Source of the DNA: a virus
Taxonomy: Duplodnaviria; Heunggongvirae; Uroviricota; Caudoviricetes
Length of the DNA: 37,472 nucleotides
IMG/VR virus record: IMGVR_UViG_2561511241_000010
Strand: one strand, 5' to 3'
Numbering within the stretch: position 1 is the first letter of the stretch; each line of letters begins with the position of its first letter. Shown in pieces: positions 22,597 to 34,548 of this stretch. A model generated the notes under the pieces. The model was not told the DNA's origin, searched no databases, and was given only the letters and a program-made list of their open reading frames with translations. A program made the position numbers and the translations under genes.

Positions 22597-22949
22597 TACG
22601 TGCTCCAGTGAGACGCAGGATCAAGCGGGTAGCCATTGGCATCACAGCCTATTACAGCGCCGCTCTTCTCCATTCTCTGTTTCGTTGAGTCGTGATGTGC
22701 TTTGCACAGTGGCTGCCAGTTCTCTTTACTCCAGAACAGGAGCTGTGCTTTCGATATAGCCAGCGGGTTACCTGACTTAAGCGCATCTTTGAGTTTGTGG
22801 GGTTCGATATGGTCAACCACCGTTGCTGGGGTTATGCGCCCCTGCTGCTCGCACATCACACATAGTGGGTGCTGCTGCAGGAAACGCAGACGGGCCTTAT
22901 CCCATCGGCTGCCATATACGCGGGGCTCTTTGTTCATGCCAGTCTCCAT
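22596..22949 (-). CDS. HNH endonuclease
   Basis: 117 aa with CxxC...H...CxxHH arrangement (CVMCEQQG...VDHIEPH...CKAHH). Confidence 0.85.
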   Translation of the reverse strand: METGMNKEPRVYGSRWDKARLRFLQQHPLCVMCEQQGRITPATVVDHIEPHKLKDALKSGNPLAISKAQLLFWSKENWQPLCKAHHDSTKQRMEKSGAVIGCDANGYPLDPASHWST

Positions 22950-23524
22950 GCGCGCCGGCGTTCCGTCCTCGGCTCGTTGTCAGGGTGACGCTCAACCGTC
23001 GGGAGGTCAGCGTGATCCACCAGCGAGTAACACGGATAAATCACCCGGCCACCGAATGCCTCACCGACGGCGTAATCAGCTGCCAGCGTTTTATTCCATG
23101 CGTTAAGCATGCGCGCCAGCCTGCCCTGAGGAGGGCTGTAACATACGCCGTGAATCAGTTTGCTTAATACGATGTGGTCACCACAGACGCGATCCGCATC
23201 CACCAGCATTCCGGCAATTTCTTTCTGATACTGCGGCGGTCGGCCGGTACCGAGATAAAAGCTCAGCATGTCGTCAGGGAAGCGCACCAGCCATTCAGTT
23301 ACCTTATCGGTGAAGCCCTGTACAGGAAGCGCGTCGTCTTCCAACACCACTACCCGGCATGTTTGCTCTGCTGCCCACTCAAGCGCACGCCGATGATTCC
23401 AGTTCGCGCCGCGGTTACCGTCATCAATAAGCAGATGAGCATCCAGCAGCGCGGTAAGTCGTTGCGCATGACCTATGCGAGAGTGATGGCCAACCACAAC
23501 AAACTTCACTTGTGTTTCCACCAT
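22934..23524 (-). CDS. Putative GT-A-fold glycosyltransferase-like protein
   Basis: 196 aa; pattern NHRRALEWAA...VVVLEDDALPV resembles the acidic-motif core of GT-A (family 25-like) transferases; overlap-coupled to both neighbours. Confidence 0.4.
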   Translation of the reverse strand: MVETQVKFVVVGHHSRIGHAQRLTALLDAHLLIDDGNRGANWNHRRALEWAAEQTCRVVVLEDDALPVQGFTDKVTEWLVRFPDDMLSFYLGTGRPPQYQKEIAGMLVDADRVCGDHIVLSKLIHGVCYSPPQGRLARMLNAWNKTLAADYAVGEAFGGRVIYPCYSLVDHADLPTVERHPDNEPRTERRRAWRLA

Positions 23525-24963
23525 GCGGCCTCCTTACCGATACCATCAGTTTTGAAAACGGTATGTACCAGGGGGCCGGTGACCAGCCTGTCAGCGAATG
23601 ACTGCGCGACAATACCGAACGCCAGCATGTCACCCACCGCGGCGCCAGCCTGTTCTTTCTTCCAGAAACGATAACTCTCTATCCGGTAGTAAAGACGGAT
23701 GATGCCGTGAGCAAACGCCATGACATCAGCGCGGGTACCGCCCAGCAGACCAGCGTTAAGCATCACATCGCCGCGGTGCGCTTCAATGAATTCTTGATAG
23801 ATACGCTCAGGATGATTCTGCTTTGCCCAGGTGTCGGCGTATGTCTTCGGTTCAGAACCGACGTAAACATTCCCGGGCTGCATTTCTTCCCACGGCGCGC
23901 GAAGCATTTCGACATCGGTACCATCTGTACACCACACGAACCGGTATTCAGGGTGATCGCGTAGGTGCTGCCAGATATGCAGCCAGCGCCGGAAGTAGAC
24001 ATTCATCTTCACGTCAGGAACGCGGTAAAGCTCAACGTCTGCCGGTGCCGTCTGTAGTTCATCCACCAGCGCGATGCGGCCACAATGTCGAAGCGAGGCC
24101 GCCCACCCGCTCAACATGTCAGGTGAGGCTACCATTCTCGTACCGCGCTGGGGGTCGGGCTGGCTGGTCAGTAGCGTAGTGATAACCACGTCGCGCTGCT
24201 GGCGGTATTCAACGTAACCAGTAAACCCGGCGTCACGACGTTCGTTGTGGATCTTCACGTTACGTTCCACCAGCGCCTGTCGGTCGGGACGCGGTACCGA
24301 ACGCTCAACGGCTTCATGCTCATCGAGAGAGTGGATCAGCTTTTCTGAACCGAAGACATCAGCGTAAGCCCACGTCGTGAGGCCAGCGTTATGAATCCGC
24401 ATGGCGAGGTCGCTGTGTTCGTACATGCCGCGACCGTAAACCGTATCGAAACCGCCAACCTTCTCGACAGCGCTACGGTGGTAATACAGCATCACGCCGC
24501 GCTGCCCGGTGTAAGCGATGTGCTTATCATCCCGGTACAGGACTGCCATATCCTTCAGCTTATTCGTCCCTGCCAGATCGAGGAACTGGTAAGCCAGGTG
24601 CGGTTCGGGTGATTCGACGTATGGCAGGTGCCAGTTATCAACGATGGGCCAGGCGTCATCGTCCCAAAGGAATAGATGCTCACATCCGGCGTCCATCAGC
24701 GCGGTTAAACTGGCGTTCTTAGAAGCAACAATGCCGAGTGATGTTTCATGGCGAAGCAGCTGCACGCCATCAGGCACTACTGCGGCAGGTTTAGAGCCAT
24801 CGTCGATAACCACCACCAGCGCACCGATGGGAAGATGTTTGGTGTGCTGCTCAATGGCACGCTTTAAAACGTCTGGCCGGTTATGGGTAGTTATGGCAAT
24901 GCCAATCCGTGACGCTGAAGCGCAAGCGGGTACAAACGGGACACCATCAATAGTGACCTGCAT
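23506..24963 (-). CDS. Two-domain protein with N-terminal family 2 glycosyltransferase domain
   Basis: 485 aa; N-terminus IGIAITTHNRPDVLKRAIEQ...VVVIDDGS...LWDDDAWP carries GT2 signature motifs; about 230-aa C-terminal domain of unknown function; no long hydrophobic segments; GTGGAGAA ribosome-binding site. Confidence 0.65.
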   Translation of the reverse strand: MQVTIDGVPFVPACASASRIGIAITTHNRPDVLKRAIEQHTKHLPIGALVVVIDDGSKPAAVVPDGVQLLRHETSLGIVASKNASLTALMDAGCEHLFLWDDDAWPIVDNWHLPYVESPEPHLAYQFLDLAGTNKLKDMAVLYRDDKHIAYTGQRGVMLYYHRSAVEKVGGFDTVYGRGMYEHSDLAMRIHNAGLTTWAYADVFGSEKLIHSLDEHEAVERSVPRPDRQALVERNVKIHNERRDAGFTGYVEYRQQRDVVITTLLTSQPDPQRGTRMVASPDMLSGWAASLRHCGRIALVDELQTAPADVELYRVPDVKMNVYFRRWLHIWQHLRDHPEYRFVWCTDGTDVEMLRAPWEEMQPGNVYVGSEPKTYADTWAKQNHPERIYQEFIEAHRGDVMLNAGLLGGTRADVMAFAHGIIRLYYRIESYRFWKKEQAGAAVGDMLAFGIVAQSFADRLVTGPLVHTVFKTDGIGKEAAWWKHK

Positions 24964-25230
24964 AGATTCTCCACACTAATAAAAAGATCATTACTTACCT
25001 GTGACCCTTTTGAGTCGTCATACAGAATCAGTTTCAATGAAAATAGATATAATCAAATTGGATAAGAAAATTATTTTTATTACATTGATTCATATGTGGA
25101 ATTTTCAATGATTGCTCTTAGTTTGTTACTGATTTTTAGGTTATCGTCTAAAGACATGTCTCAGTGTCGAACTGAATAACGTGTGTCAAAAACAAATTAA
25201 AATCCAAACAGCGCACTCATTGGAGAGCTT

Positions 25231-25581
25231 ATGACTAGTGTAAGAATCCTTGGCGGTTTTATCTCTGACGCAGCAAAAGATGGCATCTACATAGGTGGAA
25301 AAGGGGTAAAAGTTGAGATTGAGAATACGGAGATTCGTAACACCGGTCGCTCTGGTGTCCATGTTTCCGAAAATGATACTGAATTTTTATATCCTAAAGG
25401 TTTGAATCCAGAGACTCCCAAAGAGTTGCTCATCAAAGCTCAAGAGGAGCTAAAGGTAAACGAAGCAACAGGAAGGGCAGACGAAGCTACCATTTTTTCC
25501 AAAATAGGATTGTCCGATTGGATAGAAAAAGGTGCAAACTTAACTGTCATCGCAGATTTTTTAATGAATACTTTTAAGTAG
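25231..25581 (+). CDS. Hypothetical protein on an AT-rich moron
   Basis: 116-aa ORF with GGAGAG ribosome-binding site, opposite to all flanking phage genes, preceded by about 270 bp of AT-rich DNA. Confidence 0.45.
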   Translation: MTSVRILGGFISDAAKDGIYIGGKGVKVEIENTEIRNTGRSGVHVSENDTEFLYPKGLNPETPKELLIKAQEELKVNEATGRADEATIFSKIGLSDWIEKGANLTVIADFLMNTFK

Positions 25582-25620
25582 TCATTAATTAGCTACTACG
25601 CAGTGCCTAAAACTCAACCT

Positions 25621-25659
25621 CTATTTTAAAGTCCCCACAAGTTGATAATTTGTGGGGAC
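25621..25659 (-). terminator. Terminator hairpin between the lysis operon and the moron
   Basis: Perfect 10-bp stem GTCCCCACAA/TTGTGGGGAC with 9-nt loop; T-rich tract follows on the minus strand. Confidence 0.5.
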
Positions 25660-25699
25660 AACCATTATCAAGCCCACTAGCAGGTGAGCTTTGTAATGG

Positions 25700-25984
25700 C
25701 TAACAGTCGGCATCTGGACGCGCTACAGCACGACAGGCCCACATGCAGGCTTCCTGCATTTTGGTGCGCGCAATGGCGAGACAGCGCAGCGCCTCTGAAC
25801 GATCGCTAGCCTCATCAGAGTTGGCCTCCACTACCTGCAAAGATAGATGTGTGCGTTCAAGGTCCAACTGCTCGCAAAAATCACGGCTAATTTCCTTCAG
25901 GCCATTCATTTGAGCAATATCGTCTGCGGAGAGGGTTCGATATCCTTTTACTGTACTTCCGTCCTGTGGTTTAGCTTCACTCAT
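25700..25984 (-). CDS. Hypothetical protein at the end of the lysis cassette
   Basis: Start chosen at internal Met (MSEAKPQ), which overlaps the upstream lipoprotein stop; about 94 aa, soluble. Confidence 0.4.
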   Translation of the reverse strand: MSEAKPQDGSTVKGYRTLSADDIAQMNGLKEISRDFCEQLDLERTHLSLQVVEANSDEASDRSEALRCLAIARTKMQEACMWACRAVARPDADC

Positions 25985-26214
25985 GGAGTTCTCTTCTCGG
26001 TTGGTTTCTGGCAGTTCGCCTGCCACGCTTTGTTATGCGCCAGGATGTCTTTCTTCGTCTGGCGGTCCAGAACATCCCAGTCGTGATCCGTTCCGTATAT
26101 GGGTTTAACCCAGTCGCAAGCCGTGTCCACTACTTCAACCTTTACGGGTCCAGTTGTCCCGCAGCTCGCGATCAACATCGTCGCCAGACATATGGTTAAC
26201 AGTTTGCTGTACAT
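25981..26214 (-). CDS. Outer-membrane lipoprotein, o-spanin-like
   Basis: Signal peptide with lipobox LIASC; start lies inside the 3' end of the upstream membrane-protein gene in another frame. Confidence 0.5.
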   Translation of the reverse strand: MYSKLLTICLATMLIASCGTTGPVKVEVVDTACDWVKPIYGTDHDWDVLDRQTKKDILAHNKAWQANCQKPTEKRTP

Positions 26215-27803: not shown

Positions 27804-27959
27804 TTATTTACTGGATTTAATCAGAGGCCAGAGCAGCGCAATCACTCCAGCCACCAGCACACCATCAGCAAGGATGGACATCATTTTGCTGGTGAAGTCG
27901 ATGGCAACCACCAGGAACAACAAAACCCCGGCGGCCGCCCAGCGCAGTTTTCCGATCAC
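27804..27959 (-). CDS. Possible small membrane peptide (GTG start)
   Basis: 51 codons from a GTG overlapping the TerB-like stop (GTGA); two hydrophobic stretches; not in the supplied ORF table. Confidence 0.2.
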   Translation of the reverse strand: MIGKLRWAAAGVLLFLVVAIDFTSKMMSILADGVLVAGVIALLWPLIKSSK

Positions 27960-28381
27960 AGGTACTGATCCAGTGGAAGCTGCAGCGCCTGAGCGATTTT
28001 CTTCAGCTGTTTCTCTTCTTCTTCACCGATCCCGTCGTTGTCAGCAACATCGAGACACAGGCACAGAACGTCAACAGCATCATTTGTACCGGCAACGTCA
28101 GCCAGCTCGCGCAGCGCCTGAGCATTAGCGGAGCGCGGCGAGGCTTCGTAGCGCGCGCGAATGTTGCTGCTCATCTGCGCAATTTCTCCGGCGAATGGTG
28201 CGAAGGCAGGCAGTGCCGAAATGGTTTTTTCCAGCGTGGCGATTTCTTTCGCATCGCAGGTACCATCGGCATACGCAATGGAGTAAGCGCCCCATACAGT
28301 CGCCTCAACCGCATCGCGGTTTTCCATTTTCTTAACTTCAGTAACGGCTTTACGAGCTTTCTTTTTGAAGATACCGAACAT
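27956..28381 (-). CDS. TerB-like (tellurite-resistance TerB family) protein
   Basis: 141 aa; helical pattern with acidic C-terminus (DNDGIGEEEEKQLKKIAQAL) resembling TerB-domain proteins. Confidence 0.45.
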   Translation of the reverse strand: MFGIFKKKARKAVTEVKKMENRDAVEATVWGAYSIAYADGTCDAKEIATLEKTISALPAFAPFAGEIAQMSSNIRARYEASPRSANAQALRELADVAGTNDAVDVLCLCLDVADNDGIGEEEEKQLKKIAQALQLPLDQYL

Positions 28382-29437: not shown

Positions 29438-30405
29438 GCGGCCACCTGCTGTTTTTTATAGAAAACCAGCTCACGAACCTGATCGCCGTTCATGAGCATA
29501 TTGTTGAAATCATCGTGATCCGGCCAGTACACGCTCACGCGCTGCAGGTCATTTTTAGCCATCAGATTTGCGTGAGCGCATTCGCAGGCAGCAGCTAAAC
29601 CCGTAGCGCTTGTCTCGTCGCGGTCGGCAAAAATAATCAGATGCTTAACGCCTGCCGGGACCCGGAATTTCTTCATAAAATTGGCGGTCATAGTCGCCCA
29701 GGTATTCACTTTGTAAATCTGATGTGCAGACAGCGCAGTTTCGATACCTTCAGCGATGCCAAGTGTGCTGGCGACCGGGAACATACGGATAGCGACCGAA
29801 CGAGCGTGATCAAGATAGTTATCTTCCTGCAGCGATTTCTGCCGCTTGGCGCTGGCCCCGATGTCAGCTTTCTTTGCACCATCCAATAACGTCTGATGGA
29901 GGTAACACAGCTCCCCTTTATCGTCTGTTGCCAGTGAATAAATAGACTGGTATACCCGTCCGTTATGCCGTTGCTTGGGGTTGAGTCGCACGGCCTCAGC
30001 CGGAAGCTGATAAATACCGCGTGAATTCAGGTATTCAGCGCCGGATGTACCGCGCAGAGGAGACATTTTTGCAAAGTTGTTGAGTACCTTTCTCCGCAGC
30101 TTGGAGGCGTCGCTAGTCTCGGGAACTTTGTCACGTCTGAACGTATTGCCGATCAGTGCATCGATTTCGCGGCAAACCTCGTTGAATGGTTTGCCCTGGG
30201 TTTCGGTAACCAGCTTAAGCCCGTCACCGCTGCCACAGGTGCAGATCCATGTTCCCGCGCCGTCGCGGTTATCGATGCGGAACTTTCCAATCGAATCACA
30301 CAGCGGGCACTTCCCCTTAAAGTGATTTTTACCGGTGATCGGCGGCAGTCCGTAATGCTCAAAAATCATGGCCCAATGGCCTTTTGCTGCTTCTACCGTT
30401 TTCAT
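29434..30405 (-). CDS. DNA primase (zinc-ribbon plus Toprim)
   Basis: N-terminal CPLC...WICTCGSG zinc ribbon; Toprim-like IAEGIETALS...IIFADRDE. Confidence 0.75.
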   Translation of the reverse strand: MKTVEAAKGHWAMIFEHYGLPPITGKNHFKGKCPLCDSIGKFRIDNRDGAGTWICTCGSGDGLKLVTETQGKPFNEVCREIDALIGNTFRRDKVPETSDASKLRRKVLNNFAKMSPLRGTSGAEYLNSRGIYQLPAEAVRLNPKQRHNGRVYQSIYSLATDDKGELCYLHQTLLDGAKKADIGASAKRQKSLQEDNYLDHARSVAIRMFPVASTLGIAEGIETALSAHQIYKVNTWATMTANFMKKFRVPAGVKHLIIFADRDETSATGLAAACECAHANLMAKNDLQRVSVYWPDHDDFNNMLMNGDQVRELVFYKKQQVAA

Positions 30406-32021
30406 GCTCGTTTTCCTAACTGCTGTCTGATATCACTGACGCGATTAAGCGCCTGCTGAATTCTTTCCTGGGTAGGCAGCTCTTCTACCTGTGCCTGCTG
30501 GCGCTGCTCTTTTTCGATTCGTCTAGCGAAGCTGATCCGCTTGTGCGTAATGAAGTTTGAAACTGTTGGCGTGATGTCCATCGGGTAATCGCTCAGTCCG
30601 TTCGGCCATTCGCCAAAACGTTCGCGGAAGGTGTGAGCACACCAGGCATCGCTGACAGGCTTTTTCCCCAGCGATACGCGCTGGCGCTGATAGAATTTGA
30701 TCTGACTCCACCAGGCTTGTTTCTCTGCCTTCGTCGGCTGGCGCTGCTCGCCCCCAAGTTTTTTGAGTTTTCGCCCGGTGTCGGTATCAATGTCCTCACC
30801 GGCAAGCGGCTTGTGGCCACATTTAGGGCAGACATAGACGCCAGCAGGCTTCATGAAGTGGCATTGCGAGCATTCGTGAGGCAGCTTTTCTGCTCGTTCC
30901 TCAGCTGCGCGGCGCGCGCCCTCCTCCATCCCGTCTGATTTACCCGGAAGATCGTCATATTCGATAGAGTCCGGATAACCTAGGCGGTGCACGGTTCCGC
31001 TGTGATCGAAGATGAGGCAGGACTCTTTACCCGGAGCGGTGCGCAAGCCACGCCCGAGCGCCTGCAGCCAGCGAATTTCGCTCTTAGTTGGCCTGGCGTA
31101 GATGATGCAGCGAACATCGCTGTCGAAACCGGCAACCAGCACCCCTACACTGACGATGATTTTTGTGGCGCCAGTTTCGAAGCGGTGAATGATGGTTTGG
31201 CGTTCTTCCGCAGGCGTATCTGCAGTCATAACCTCTGCATTTACGCCAGCTTGGTTAAACTGAATAGTCAGAAAATTAGCGTGGTCTACGTTGACGCAGA
31301 ACGCGATTGTCGGCAGGTCCCGGCCGTTCTCCAGCCAGTTTTGGACGATATCGCCCACCAGCGTTGAACCGCACATGATCTCCGCCAGCTGCGCCTCGTT
31401 GTAGTCGGTACCGTACTGCAGGGACGGAGAGGTTTTAACCCCTTTCAGATCCGGCTTTGTGGGCGCGTAAAATTCGTATTTGCTCAGGTCGCCGCGCTGG
31501 ATCAGCTCGCCGATGGTGGTTGGCTTAATCAGTCGATCATAGTATTTTCCCAGGAACGGGGAAAACGGTGTCCCCGACAGGCCGATCACTTTCACGCCTT
31601 TTTCGCGCAGGCGTTCGATATCCTGCAGGATGCGTTTTTTCCGCAGGTGAGCTTCGTCGATAATCAGCAGATCGATATTGTCAGGAAACACGCGACGAAT
31701 AAGCGTATCGGCGCTGGCAATTTGTATTTTGAGGGAAGGATCATAGTTTGGGTGATCCGCCCATACATAGCCGATTTCATCACCCGGCAACCCATACTCC
31801 ACAAAACGGTTTGCTGTTTGGGTTATGAGGATCTGGTAAGGCGCGCAAAACATTACACGCATGCCACGACTAACGAACCCAGCAACGATGAAGGCGGCCA
31901 GTCCTGTTTTACCGCTGCCCGTCGGCGAGTACACCATGAAGGTTTCTGTATCCTTCCAGTTACGGCGCAGCTGGTTAAGTGCTCGTTCCTGTGCAAAATT
32001 CGGTGTGATCGTCAGCTGCAT
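30402..32021 (-). CDS. Superfamily 2 DEAD/DEAH-box helicase
   Basis: Walker A SPTGSGKT, DEAH box (LIIDEAH), C-terminal CSQCH...CPKCGH zinc-finger-like motif. Confidence 0.85.
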   Translation of the reverse strand: MQLTITPNFAQERALNQLRRNWKDTETFMVYSPTGSGKTGLAAFIVAGFVSRGMRVMFCAPYQILITQTANRFVEYGLPGDEIGYVWADHPNYDPSLKIQIASADTLIRRVFPDNIDLLIIDEAHLRKKRILQDIERLREKGVKVIGLSGTPFSPFLGKYYDRLIKPTTIGELIQRGDLSKYEFYAPTKPDLKGVKTSPSLQYGTDYNEAQLAEIMCGSTLVGDIVQNWLENGRDLPTIAFCVNVDHANFLTIQFNQAGVNAEVMTADTPAEERQTIIHRFETGATKIIVSVGVLVAGFDSDVRCIIYARPTKSEIRWLQALGRGLRTAPGKESCLIFDHSGTVHRLGYPDSIEYDDLPGKSDGMEEGARRAAEERAEKLPHECSQCHFMKPAGVYVCPKCGHKPLAGEDIDTDTGRKLKKLGGEQRQPTKAEKQAWWSQIKFYQRQRVSLGKKPVSDAWCAHTFRERFGEWPNGLSDYPMDITPTVSNFITHKRISFARRIEKEQRQQAQVEELPTQERIQQALNRVSDIRQQLGKRA

Positions 32022-33045: not shown

Positions 33046-33714
33046 ATGGCTATGAAACAGAGATGGCAGGACCTGGCCAAAACCAGGATGAAAGAAGTCG
33101 GCATGACTCAAGAACAGCTGGCAGAAGCGCTCGGCATAACGCAGGGCGGGCTAGGCCATTGGTTAAATGCCAGACGTGAACCGAACCTAGAGGTTATAGC
33201 GAAGATTTTTAACATATTGAAAATGCCCGGCTTCGTAGTAAACGCTGACGGCACGGTCAGCGACTCAAGAGCCGATCACAATGTAAGTTTTAATAGCATT
33301 AACGAATCCAAAGGAAGTTACCCTGTTATAAGCTGGGTTAGCGCTGGAGACTGGATGGAAGCAGTAGAACCTTATCACCGTAGAGCGATAGATCGCTGGT
33401 ATGACACCACCGTTGAATGTTCAGAGGATTCGTTCTGGTTAGACGTCAGAGGCGATTCCATGACATCACCAGCAGGGCTGAGCATACCGGAAGGGATGGT
33501 GATACTTGTCGATCCCCAAGTGGAAGCAATCAACGGAAAATTGGTTGTAGCGAAACTTGACGGTGACAATGAAGCTACATTCAAAAAGCTTGTTATCGAT
33601 GCCGGTCAAAGATTTCTAAAACCCCTCAACCCCCAATACCCAATAATCCCAATCAATGGCAACTGCCGTATTATAGGGGTTGTGGTCGACGCAAAAATCA
33701 CCAACCTTCCGTAA
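33046..33714 (+). CDS. cI: CI-like repressor (HTH plus S24 LexA-like peptidase domain)
   Basis: N-terminal helix-turn-helix (MTQEQLAEALGITQGGLGHW); C-terminal GDSM serine motif and downstream lysine, as in LexA/CI autocleavage domains. Confidence 0.9.
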   Translation: MAMKQRWQDLAKTRMKEVGMTQEQLAEALGITQGGLGHWLNARREPNLEVIAKIFNILKMPGFVVNADGTVSDSRADHNVSFNSINESKGSYPVISWVSAGDWMEAVEPYHRRAIDRWYDTTVECSEDSFWLDVRGDSMTSPAGLSIPEGMVILVDPQVEAINGKLVVAKLDGDNEATFKKLVIDAGQRFLKPLNPQYPIIPINGNCRIIGVVVDAKITNLP

Positions 33715-33741: not shown

Positions 33742-33799
33742 GCCTTCAACACCCTCCATGCAACTAAAAAAACTTGAAAAACAAAACGATGTAAAATAA

Positions 33800-33850
33800 T
33801 ACACTCAAATACTCCATTTTGTATTGATCTTATTTAATACGTTATGTATT
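33800..33850. promoter_or_regulatory. OL-like operator/promoter region
   Basis: Contains inverted copies of the two OR motifs: TCCATTTTGTATT (33813..33825) and AATACGTTATGTATT (33836..33850). Confidence 0.45.
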
Positions 33851-33884
33851 GTTTATGCATTGGCGGATTAATGGAGTGCAAAAG

Positions 33885-34199
33885 ATGAGTACAGAGAAAT
33901 TTTTTCAACTTGTAGATATTCCCGATTACCGTTTCTCTTCTGATAAAGAGAAATGTCAAAACATTGATTTCGATAAAATTGCTACTGACTGCGATACGAA
34001 AACAACCTCTATTTTAGAAGCCATCAATCATATAGGGATTAGCATAATGAGTGAGGTTGAAGAAAAGAACTTAGATAAAAACAAAATAATGATGCTTTCT
34101 GGTGTGATTGCAGACCTCGCAGAATTAGCAATGGCTACCAATAAAATAGCTAACTCAGCAACATATTCCTCCGGTTATAAGGACGCAAAAAATGTCTGA
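33885..34199 (+). CDS. Hypothetical protein, AT-rich early-left gene
   Basis: Start at ATG 33885 (GGAG 8 nt upstream) preferred over 33849; about 104 aa; low GC. Confidence 0.4.
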   Translation: MSTEKFFQLVDIPDYRFSSDKEKCQNIDFDKIATDCDTKTTSILEAINHIGISIMSEVEEKNLDKNKIMMLSGVIADLAELAMATNKIANSATYSSGYKDAKNV

Positions 34200-34380
34200 T
34201 ATCACTTTGCAAAAAGCGGCATCAAAGGCTTACCAGGCTGAGATTGTTGCGAGGATGCTTGAGAACTACCCTCATAAACTGACCGACTCAGATGTGGAAT
34301 CCGTCGCATCACTTTTGGCGGATCTCATTGGCCCGGTTGCGGCTTACCTTATTGAGCAAGAGTCTAAAAACCCGGCTTAA
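34192..34380 (+). CDS. Hypothetical small protein
   Basis: 62-aa ORF overlapping the previous stop (ATGTCTGA coupling). Confidence 0.4.
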   Translation: MSDITLQKAASKAYQAEIVARMLENYPHKLTDSDVESVASLLADLIGPVAAYLIEQESKNPA

Positions 34381-34548
34381 AAATTAATTAGTCATTTTAA
34401 TTACAGGAATAATCCTGGGGATTCCTGCAATCAAATTAAGGGTAACCATGATTAATCGACAAGCGTTTAAAACAGCTCAGTTATTTGTCTCATTCGGTTA
34501 TTGGTCTATAGCCATGCTTTATTTAAAAAAGGCTTACGGTAAATAAAA

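What the first reader, a model, noticed from the sequence alone, without database searches (positions are those of the whole stretch)
24964..25700. AT-rich moron with an opposite-strand ORF between the lysis and glycosyltransferase genes
Seen in sequence: about 270 bp of AT-rich DNA (24964..25230) precedes a 116-aa ORF (25231..25581, GGAGAG ribosome-binding site) reading against every neighbouring phage gene, and a perfect 10-bp-stem hairpin lies at 25631..25659. The N-terminal half has a repeat-like pattern (GIYIGGKGVKVEIENTEIRNTGRSGVHVSEN) reminiscent of beta-helix repeats. Own promoter, opposite orientation and atypical composition are the hallmarks of a lysogen-expressed moron. Such loci commonly carry exclusion, defence or virulence cargo.
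Basis: partly seen in the sequence, partly recalled or inferred. Interest (0 to 1): 0.55.

Follow-up and report, generated by a model that had tools for sequence, protein, structure and literature searches.

The report
Swappable prophage moron, new small-protein family
A ~700-bp AT-rich cassette in an E. coli prophage carries one backward-facing gene for a small, previously unnamed protein family that always sits between the lysis and DNA-packaging genes of lambda-like prophages, in the slot where relatives carry the classic accessory gene bor; its function is still unknown.

Summary
Window 24964..~25660 is the lowest-GC stretch of the window. It contains one 116-aa ORF (25231..25581, +) with an RBS, the only + strand gene in ~28 kb of late genes, followed by a strong hairpin.

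It is a discrete cassette. Homology to related prophages breaks at the glycosyltransferase ATG (24963) and resumes at a conserved ~46-nt junction element (25659..25704). A relative with the same flanks carries lambda bor there instead, also on the opposite strand. Other relatives carry unrelated cargo upstream of the glycosyltransferase.

The ORF is a real gene. It founds an unannotated ~112-117-aa family of about 10 allele classes (24-43% identity). Every member with enough flanking sequence lies alone on the opposite strand between lysis and packaging genes, across four terminase types. AlphaFold2 gives two beta-helix rungs plus a helical C-terminal half (pLDDT 84-86 for two alleles), with no convincing structural neighbour. 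Alleles only ~30% identical sit next to glycosyltransferases 88-93% identical.

"Moron" is well supported. "Own promoter" and "lysogen-expressed" remain inferred: there is no consensus promoter, and the hairpin is not a canonical terminator. Function is unknown. My best guess is a non-enzymatic binding protein involved in phage conflict.

The parts
24964..25230 (+). AT-rich non-coding leader of the cassette (267 bp, GC 0.31), the presumed promoter/regulatory region. Its left edge is the cassette boundary, abutting the ATG of the glycosyltransferase gene on the other strand.
   Evidence: Homology with L044 and L046 breaks exactly here. Identity to the Enterobacter cassette is 68% in the distal part and 91-92% in two conserved blocks. 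No consensus promoter.
25048..25053 (+). TATAAT hexamer conserved between the E. coli and Enterobacter cassettes amid diverged sequence. It is a candidate -10 without a good -35. A second candidate is TAAAAT at 25198..25203.
   Evidence: Read from the sequence and the invariant columns of alignment A1. Relaxed scan. Unverified.
25121..25166 (+). Conserved 46-nt upstream block (91% identical to Enterobacter, against 68% and 38% around it). It contains the perfect 10-bp palindrome AGACATGTCT (25152..25161) and may be an operator or promoter element.
   Evidence: Palindrome read. Function not tested.
25222..25227 (+). Shine-Dalgarno-like GGAGAG, 3 nt before the ATG.
   Evidence: I read SD-like purine runs by eye in 8 of the 9 family lineages examined.
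25231..25581 (+). ORF116 (RefSeq WP_000204999.1, 'hypothetical protein'). It is the founding member seen here of an unannotated ~115-aa family: two PbH1-type beta-helix rungs (residues ~3-46), a conserved AGLxPETPxE linker, a helical C-terminal half, and a terminal amphipathic helix (GANLxTIASLxxQIF motif).
   Evidence: dN/dS about 0.4.
25631..25659 (.). Strong stem-loop 49 nt after the stop codon. It may be a 3'-end or stabilising hairpin. It is not a canonical intrinsic terminator because no U-tract follows on either strand.
   Evidence: -20.3 kcal/mol, z -5.6 on +; -17.1, z -4.0 on -. (not flagged). The stem is kept with a changed loop in Enterobacter.
25659..25704 (.). Conserved ~46-nt junction element that forms the right boundary of the cassette and contains the stop codon of the Acb2-like gene. 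It recurs in many lambdoid prophages at the lysis/packaging module border.
   Evidence: It folds better on the - strand (-21.8 kcal/mol, z -3.65). No Rfam match.
23506..24963 (-). Left flank (not part of the cassette): 485-aa glycosyltransferase (phrog_1579), 88-93% identical among prophages whose ORF116-family alleles are only ~30% identical.
25700..26026 (-). Right flank (not part of the cassette): Acb2/Tad1-hairpin-domain gene, a homologue of an anti-CBASS sponge.
   Evidence: PF24729, 7.5e-18. (PDB 7uq2 Vs.4 and 8h2j p26, E about 3e-7).

Best explanation
Window 24964..~25660 is a self-contained moron cassette sitting at the module border between the lysis block and the packaging-side genes of a Hendrixvirinae-like lambdoid prophage. 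This is the same slot and orientation that lambda uses for bor.

Shown:
- The cassette is exchangeable against other cargos at fixed break-points: the GT start codon on one side and a conserved 46-nt junction element on the other.
- Its ORF is a real, selected gene of a new ~115-aa family.
- That family is always found singly, on the strand opposite the late operon, in this slot, across prophages with four kinds of terminase.

Inferred:
- The gene is transcribed from its own promoter in the AT-rich leader, independently of and head-on to the Q-dependent late transcript. It would therefore be expressed chiefly when late transcription is off, that is, in the lysogen.
- The product is a small, mostly acidic, cytoplasmic, non-enzymatic protein: a two-rung beta-helix stub joined to a small helical domain that ends in an amphipathic helix.
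- It acts by binding a partner through the exposed beta-helix face or edge, possibly after self-association.
- Alleles only ~30% identical sit beside ~90% identical flanks. The partner is therefore probably a fast-evolving one, most likely a component of competing phages, giving prophage-encoded exclusion or defence.
For: - Cassette and swap. Homology among window, L002, L044 and L046 runs through the GT gene to its ATG and resumes at the junction element. L044 carries Bor (PF06291, 6.7e-30) on the opposite strand with a terminator-like hairpin in the same slot. L046 carries an unrelated 98-aa ORF there. Upstream of the GT, L029 and L042 carry opposite-strand YfbU-domain and GNAT genes. None of the 52 species-level GT loci has the family.
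- Composition. It is the lowest-GC segment of the window. Low GC is shared by all family members examined (0.36-0.43, against 0.50-0.56 in flanks).
- Real gene. There are 16 hits at E <= 1e-3 in 1.84 billion representatives, 13 of them small proteins (112-140 aa) and 12 of those matching over most of their length. Length, motifs and fold are conserved (pLDDT 85.6 and 84.2 for alleles ~30% identical). dN/dS is 0.39-0.40 (p = 0.06 and 0.011). The exact protein is intact on 294 contigs.
- Slot and orientation rule. Loci L059, L060-62, L063-65, L066-67, L068/69/71, L070, L078-79, L080-81 and L082 all show the gene alone on the + strand, with - strand neighbours wherever flanking sequence is available. 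Where both sides are present it lies between Rz/endolysin/holin and HNH/terS/terL, with TerL_ATPase, GpA, Terminase_6C and Terminase_3 packaging modules.
- Hyperdivergence in conserved flanks. ORF identity is 30-33% against GT identity of 88-93%.
- Non-enzymatic soluble binder. The protein has only two PbH1 rungs, and the C-terminal domain is never found fused to other domains. There is no signal peptide or transmembrane segment, and pI is mostly 4.8-6.8. No solved or viral structure matches the whole fold.
Against: - No sigma-70 consensus promoter is found in the leader. Only 8-9 of 12 matches appear with a relaxed scorer.
- No canonical terminator follows the ORF in the window.
- I had no transcript data, so timing of expression is pure inference from orientation.
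- There are no hits to PADLOC defence models or to any named family, so the 'phage conflict' role rests only on allele hyperdivergence and the kind of locus.
- Known exclusion proteins are usually membrane or lipoproteins, and this one has no such signals.
- dN/dS of ~0.4 shows only moderate constraint, from few substitutions.
- Divergent alleles beside conserved flanks could reflect old cassette exchange rather than an arms race.
Confidence: 0.45

Rival explanations
1. It is a lytic-cycle accessory or anti-defence gene. The protein is made on infection or induction from a constitutive or early promoter and neutralises a host defence or other host factor, in the same way as the Acb2 sponge gene next to it.
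For: The immediate neighbour is an Acb2/Tad1-family gene. The protein is small, acidic, soluble, has a novel fold and has hyperdivergent alleles, as many anti-defence proteins do. It has no membrane signals of the kind typical of exclusion proteins.
Against: The strictly opposite orientation to the late operon in every lineage would put it in head-on conflict with late transcription. The Acb2 neighbour is present only in the window's lineage. The same slot holds bor, a classic lysogen-expressed gene.
Confidence: 0.2
2. It is a lysogenic-conversion factor acting on host physiology or virulence rather than on phages, functionally analogous to Bor, which can replace it in the slot.
For: It occupies the same slot and orientation as bor. 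The hosts are animal-associated Enterobacterales, including a porcine ETEC.
Against: There is no signal peptide, lipobox or transmembrane segment, so it is not surface-exposed like Bor. There is no similarity to any virulence or metabolic family. Hyperdivergent alleles are not expected for a housekeeping-type host target.
Confidence: 0.15
3. The main function is at the RNA/DNA level. A head-on promoter, hairpins and the junction element insulate or modulate late transcription across the lysis/packaging border, for example through antisense RNA to lysis genes in the lysogen. On this view the ORF is secondary.
For: In L060 and L070 the ORF ends 1-4 nt from the convergent Rz gene with no room for a terminator. 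The window hairpin is not a canonical terminator, so read-through into Acb2 and the lysis genes is plausible. The junction element and second hairpin are conserved.
Against: Protein-level conservation of length, motifs and fold at 24-43% identity across about 10 lineages, with an SD-like sequence read by eye in 8 of the 9 examined, shows that the protein is what is selected. The upstream DNA is poorly conserved between lineages.
Confidence: 0.05
4. It is a non-functional remnant: a fragment of a larger beta-helix protein (tailspike or polysaccharide enzyme), or a chance ORF in AT-rich junk.
For: There are only two beta-helix rungs. The Pfam Beta_helix score is below cut-off. The N-terminal repeats hit giant beta-helix proteins.
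Against: Full-length homologues have conserved size, a family-specific C-terminal domain that is never part of larger proteins, and a confident fold. dN/dS is below 1. The slot is conserved. The identical intact protein is present on 294 contigs.
Confidence: 0.03

Closest known systems
Lambda bor moron (Bor lipoprotein, Pfam PF06291), between Rz and cos/Nu1 in phage lambda
   Same: It uses the same genomic slot (after the lysis cassette, before the packaging genes), is on the strand opposite the late operon, and is a single small gene. In relative L044, a bor cassette occupies the same break-points as the ORF116 cassette. The position and orientation of bor in lambda are from my own knowledge.
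   Different: ORF116 has no Bor domain, lipobox or signal peptide and is predicted to be cytoplasmic. The bor cassette in L044 ends in a canonical hairpin plus T-run, which the ORF116 cassette lacks.
Morons as defined for HK97/HK022 and other lambdoid phages (extra gene with its own promoter and terminator, atypical composition, present in one phage and absent from its relative)
   Same: Presence or absence at identical flanks, atypical low GC, a single gene, a downstream hairpin, and insertion between two genes that are adjacent or differently filled in relatives. The definition is recalled from the literature (Juhala et al. 2000, from memory).
   Different: Promoter and terminator are not recognisable by consensus. 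The cargo is itself an old family that keeps to this one slot, rather than a one-off acquisition.
Right-handed parallel beta-helix (PbH1/CASH) repeat proteins, e.g. AlgE mannuronan C5-epimerases (PDB 2pyg), NosD, pectate lyases, phage tailspikes
   Different: There are only 2 (rarely 3) rungs instead of 7 or more, no catalytic motifs, a score below the Pfam gathering threshold, and fusion to a family-specific helical domain with no detectable relatives.

Membership tests
Phage moron (lambdoid sense) | Present in some phages and absent or replaced at the same position in close relatives | tested here: met
   The same flanks carry ORF116 (window, L002), bor (L044) or another ORF (L046). 52 GT-containing relatives lack it.
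Phage moron (lambdoid sense) | Nucleotide composition different from the surrounding phage genes | tested here: met
   GC 0.36 against 0.52, the lowest 700-bp stretch in the window. The same holds in all family lineages examined.
Phage moron (lambdoid sense) | Own promoter upstream and terminator downstream | tested here: inconclusive
   No consensus sigma-70 promoter and only weak candidates. There is a strong hairpin but no U-tract. One family member (L063) does have a hairpin plus T-run right after its stop codon, read by eye. A promoter is required by the gene's orientation but has not been located.
Phage moron (lambdoid sense) | Expressed from the repressed prophage, independently of lytic genes | not testable with these tools
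   No transcript data available. This needs RNA-seq or 5'-RACE of a lysogen.
Right-handed parallel beta-helix repeat proteins (Pfam PF13229 Beta_helix; TIGR03804) | Scores above the curated family threshold | tested here: not met
   PF13229 scores 17.6 bits against a cut-off of 25.9. TIGR03804 gives only a weak match, in 3 of 14 members.
Right-handed parallel beta-helix repeat proteins (Pfam PF13229 Beta_helix; TIGR03804) | Tandem PbH1 repeats that fold as stacked three-strand rungs | tested here: met
   The profile matches AlgE repeats at E = 2e-7. AF2 gives two rungs in two diverged alleles. Two members have a one-repeat insertion.
Right-handed parallel beta-helix repeat proteins (Pfam PF13229 Beta_helix; TIGR03804) | Extended solenoid domain (many rungs) forming a carbohydrate-binding or catalytic groove | tested here: not met
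   Only 2-3 rungs in a 116-aa protein, and the rest is helical.
Lambda Bor (PF06291) | Bor domain and lipoprotein signal peptide with lipobox | tested here: not met
   No PF06291 hit for ORF116. There is no hydrophobic N-terminus or lipobox cysteine. The L044 occupant of the slot does meet both.
Known anti-phage defence proteins (PADLOC-DB v2.0) | Significant match to a defence-system protein model | tested here: not met
   Only chance-level hits (E about 0.02), in 1 of 14 members each.
Named phage protein families (PHROGs v4) and NCBIfam | Match to an existing family | tested here: not met
   0 PHROG families and 0 NCBIfam families for ORF116. RefSeq calls it 'hypothetical protein'.

The most novel reading that the evidence does not exclude
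The family is a new single-gene prophage defence that works by beta-solenoid templating. The two-rung beta-helix stub would be an open-ended stacking unit, comparable in principle to the two-rung HET-s prion domain. On this reading it polymerises, or co-assembles with beta-helical tail proteins of an invading phage. This would release the conserved C-terminal amphipathic helix (GANLxTIASLxxQIF) to attack the membrane or poison virion assembly, and allele hyperdivergence would track the phage target. Nothing here tests this. It is merely not excluded by the fold, the absence of partners or fusions, and the allele pattern.
Probability: 0.04. Interest if true: 0.8.

Novelty: new member of a known kind. 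Interest (0 to 1): 0.4.

Why it matters
The kind of element, a moron at the lysis/packaging border, is textbook. The cargo is a previously unnamed small-protein family with three unusual properties:
- It keeps to one slot and one orientation across lambdoid prophages with unrelated packaging and lysis modules.
- Its alleles are hyperdivergent (24-43% identity) yet keep one fold, and they can sit next to ~90% identical flanking genes.
- The fold, a two-rung beta-helix stub plus a private helical domain, has no convincing solved or predicted viral neighbour.

This profile makes it a cheap, well-defined candidate for defence, exclusion or anti-defence screens: a single 350-bp gene with several natural alleles. 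The conserved 46-nt junction element that bounds the cassette may help explain how cargo is swapped at this hot-spot.

Tried and rejected
- Named-family searches gave nothing for ORF116: PHROGs, NCBIfam and PADLOC. Pfam gave only a sub-threshold Beta_helix hit.
- Structure searches found no whole-fold match.
  - Foldseek against the PDB gave nothing at E below 3.
  - BFVD gave nothing at E below 0.5.
  - afdb50 was unavailable.
- The C-terminal-domain-only profile search found no fusions to other domains.
- tblastn found nothing in INPHARED phages or PLSDB plasmids. Single-protein scans of IMG/VR found nothing. The full alignment was too divergent for pattern scanning, but a sub-alignment found 5 further loci.
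- Rfam gave only noise over the region.
- The strict promoter/terminator scan found nothing relevant.
- A Gifsy prophage defence paper (PMC12724215) was checked and is unrelated, because its gene lies in the immunity/regulation region. Two further literature searches found nothing on this family.
- Covariation in the junction element was inconclusive. Inner-stem changes are G.U-compatible on the - strand, but outer-stem changes break pairs.
- Most apparent opposite-strand ORFs upstream of the GT in relatives were judged antisense shadow ORFs by eye and discarded. Only the L029, L042 and L044 cargos were kept.

Full report
**Observation.**
- 24964..25230 is 267 bp at GC 0.31.
- The 700-bp stretch 24951..25650 is the lowest-GC segment of the 37.5-kb window (0.361, against a mean of 0.523; z about -3.75). 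It is essentially tied with one other patch downstream of the repressor gene.
- The ORF at 25231..25581 (+) encodes 116 aa and is preceded by GGAGAG.
- The window is identical over this region to a prophage of E. coli ETEC1749. There the ORF (WP_000204999.1, 'hypothetical protein') is the only + strand CDS among about 28 kb of tail, head, packaging, lysis, antitermination and replication genes.
- The hairpin at 25631..25659 is strong: -20.3 kcal/mol as + strand RNA, z = -5.6. No U-run follows it on either strand, so the terminator scan does not flag it.

**It is a discrete, exchangeable cassette.**
- The same island (87% identical) occurs in Enterobacter prophages (L002-L004) next to the same 485-aa glycosyltransferase (GT). 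Homology stops at about window 25705.
- I aligned the window with two relatives that share both flanks, the GT on one side and an Acb2-like gene on the other. Similarity runs through the GT coding sequence up to its ATG (24963), is lost, and resumes at a ~46-nt element (25659..25704).
- In L044 the interval holds a 110-aa opposite-strand gene that is lambda Bor (PF06291, 6.7e-30, with lipobox), followed by a hairpin plus T-run. In L046 it holds an unrelated 98-aa ORF on the phage strand.
- Across 49 further GT-containing prophages from different species, the region immediately upstream of the GT is hypervariable in size, strand and GC. Other low-GC opposite-strand cargos there include a YfbU-domain protein and a GNAT acetyltransferase.
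- None of these loci carries the ORF116 family, whether tested by tblastn or by a family HMM.

**The ORF is a real gene of an undescribed family.**
- An exhaustive HMMER search of 1.84 billion representative proteins found 16 hits at E <= 1e-3. Thirteen are small proteins (112-140 aa, mostly 112-117), and 12 of these match over most of their length at 27-37% identity (93% for the Enterobacter copy). Three are giant PbH1/NosD beta-helix proteins hit only by the N-terminal repeats.
- The alignment shows two PbH1-type repeats (GxDGIxI ... NNGRxGxH), with a third inserted repeat in two members. A conserved AGLxPETPxE linker and a C-terminal IGFxxW...GANLxTIASLxxQIF motif follow.
- dN/dS is about 0.4 in two independent close pairs (p = 0.06 and p = 0.011).
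- The exact protein is intact on 294 contigs, all read copies being in the same prophage backbone.
- AlphaFold2 gives the same confident architecture for the window protein and for an allele ~30% identical (pLDDT 85.6 and 84.2): two stacked beta-helix rungs followed by four or five helices.
- No family in Pfam, PHROGs, NCBIfam or PADLOC covers it.
- No solved or predicted viral structure matches the whole fold.
- The N-terminal half matches AlgE epimerase repeats by profile (E = 2e-7). The C-terminal half matches nothing and is never found fused to other domains.
- Family members lack signal peptides and transmembrane segments. Most are acidic to neutral, with two basic exceptions. Their most hydrophobic stretch is the extreme C-terminal amphipathic helix in all but the window-type copies and one truncated member.

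**Strict conservation of slot and orientation.**
- Every family member whose context I could retrieve is a single gene on the strand opposite its neighbours. The sources are Sodalis, several Enterobacter species, Cronobacter, Atlantibacter, gut and other metagenomes, and IMG/VR contigs.
- Where both flanks are available, it lies between the lysis genes (holin, endolysin, Rz, sometimes a small extra gene) and the packaging side (HNH/terS/terL or other genes).
- These prophages have four different terminase types.
- Pairwise identity between about ten allele classes is 24-43%. Alleles only 30-33% identical sit beside GT proteins 88-93% identical.
- No partner gene co-occurs.

**Mechanism: what is shown and what is inferred.**
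- Shown: the cassette nature, cargo exchange at fixed break-points, a selected protein family with a conserved fold, and invariant position and orientation.
- Inferred from orientation and the lambda paradigm (my own knowledge): the gene needs its own promoter in the AT-rich leader, and Q-dependent late transcription must traverse it antisense. Expression is therefore most plausible in the lysogen.
- Promoter evidence is weak. There is no consensus site. By eye there is a conserved TATAAT at 25048..25053, a TAAAAT at 25198..25203, and a 46-nt block 91% conserved with Enterobacter that contains the palindrome AGACATGTCT.
- Because the protein is too small and repeat-poor to be a beta-helix enzyme, I take it to be a binding protein.
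- Hyperdivergent alleles point to a fast-evolving partner. Hence my preferred but weakly supported reading is prophage-encoded exclusion or defence (0.45).
- Rivals are a lytic-cycle or anti-defence accessory gene (0.2; note the Acb2 neighbour), a host-directed conversion factor (0.15), a mainly RNA-level role (0.05) and a remnant (0.03).

**Comparison with known systems.**
- It works like, and sits where, lambda bor sits, and bor replaces it in L044. It is not a Bor protein.
- It meets the comparative and compositional criteria of a moron. The promoter/terminator criterion is inconclusive, and the expression criterion was untestable here.
- Its N-terminal half is PbH1-like, but it fails the Pfam threshold and the many-rung criterion of beta-helix domains.
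- I therefore file it as a new member (new cargo family) of a known kind of element.

**Side finding.** The ~46-nt junction element is present in 23 other complete E. coli genomes and in several related phages.
- In the contexts examined it is intergenic at the lysis/packaging border. In most copies, including all three annotated E. coli loci, it overlaps the stop codon of the last lysis-side gene, and that gene differs from locus to locus. A second hairpin often follows it.
- In Sodalis (L059), two diverged copies bracket the family's cassette.
- It folds better on the late-transcript strand, but covariation is inconclusive and Rfam has nothing.
- It may be a recombination linker that explains cargo swapping, or an RNA processing or 3'-end signal. 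This is unexplained.

Noticed in passing
window 25659..25704 (also L005 5283-5328, L006 4821-4867, L032, L044, L046, L058, L073-L075): A ~46-nt imperfect-palindrome element (- strand TAGCCATTACAAAGCTCACCTGCTRGTGGGCTTGATAATGGTT) is conserved at about 88-95% in 23 other E. coli genomes and in related phages. In the contexts examined it is intergenic at the lysis/packaging module border, usually overlapping the stop codon of whatever gene precedes it, and often followed by a second hairpin starting TTATCC. It forms the right break-point of the cassette. There is no Rfam match, and whether it acts as RNA or as DNA is unresolved.
   Followed up: partly
L059 6831-6888 and 7431-7486 (Sodalis prophage): Two direct copies (82% identical, 600 bp apart) of a diverged version of the junction hairpin element bracket the ORF116-family gene and its leader. 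This suggests insertion or exchange by recombination at this element.
   Followed up: partly
window 25700..26026 (-): The gene next to the cassette has an Acb2/Tad1 hairpin domain (PF24729, 7.5e-18) and matches solved Acb2 sponges (PDB 7uq2 Vs.4, 8h2j p26; E about 3e-7). RefSeq calls it only DUF7681. It is a probable anti-CBASS cyclic-nucleotide sponge in a temperate E. coli phage. RefSeq uses a shorter start (94 aa).
   Followed up: partly
window 22934..24963 (-): Two overlapping glycosyltransferase-like genes (485 aa, phrog_1579, weak GT2 hit; 196 aa, phrog_854 'glucosyltransferase') lie between the lysis genes and the HNH/terminase genes. The 485-aa gene is conserved in prophages of about 50 species, including loci labelled Pseudomonas and Rhizobiaceae. 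Its substrate and role are unknown.
   Followed up: no
window 33761..34460 (ORFs 33885..34199 + and 34192..34380 +): This is the second AT-rich patch of the window (GC 0.364). It lies just downstream of, and on the same strand as, the LexA-family repressor gene (33046..33714) and holds two small overlapping ORFs with no Pfam hit. It occupies a rexAB-like position, so it may be another lysogen-expressed cargo.
   Followed up: partly
window 27804..28381 (-): A TerB-family protein (141 aa; PF05099, 1.4e-6) and a DUF3927 mini-protein (51 aa) lie between the antiterminator gene and the holins. The pair recurs in Enterobacter relatives (L078, L079).
   Followed up: no
window 25152..25161: A perfect 10-bp palindrome, AGACATGTCT, lies inside a 46-nt upstream block that is 91% conserved with the Enterobacter cassette, while surrounding DNA is 38-68% identical. 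It is a possible regulator binding site.
   Followed up: no
window about 30400..32020 (L001 25439..27057): RefSeq annotates the prophage's DEAD/DEAH helicase as frameshifted, so this copy of the prophage may be replication-defective. L077 carries the same late region with a different (DnaB-type) replication module.
   Followed up: no
L060 7339/7344 and L070 640/641: In two lineages the family gene ends 1-4 nt from the stop codon of the convergent Rz/spanin gene, leaving no room for a terminator. Transcription from the moron would therefore run antisense into the lysis genes.
   Followed up: no
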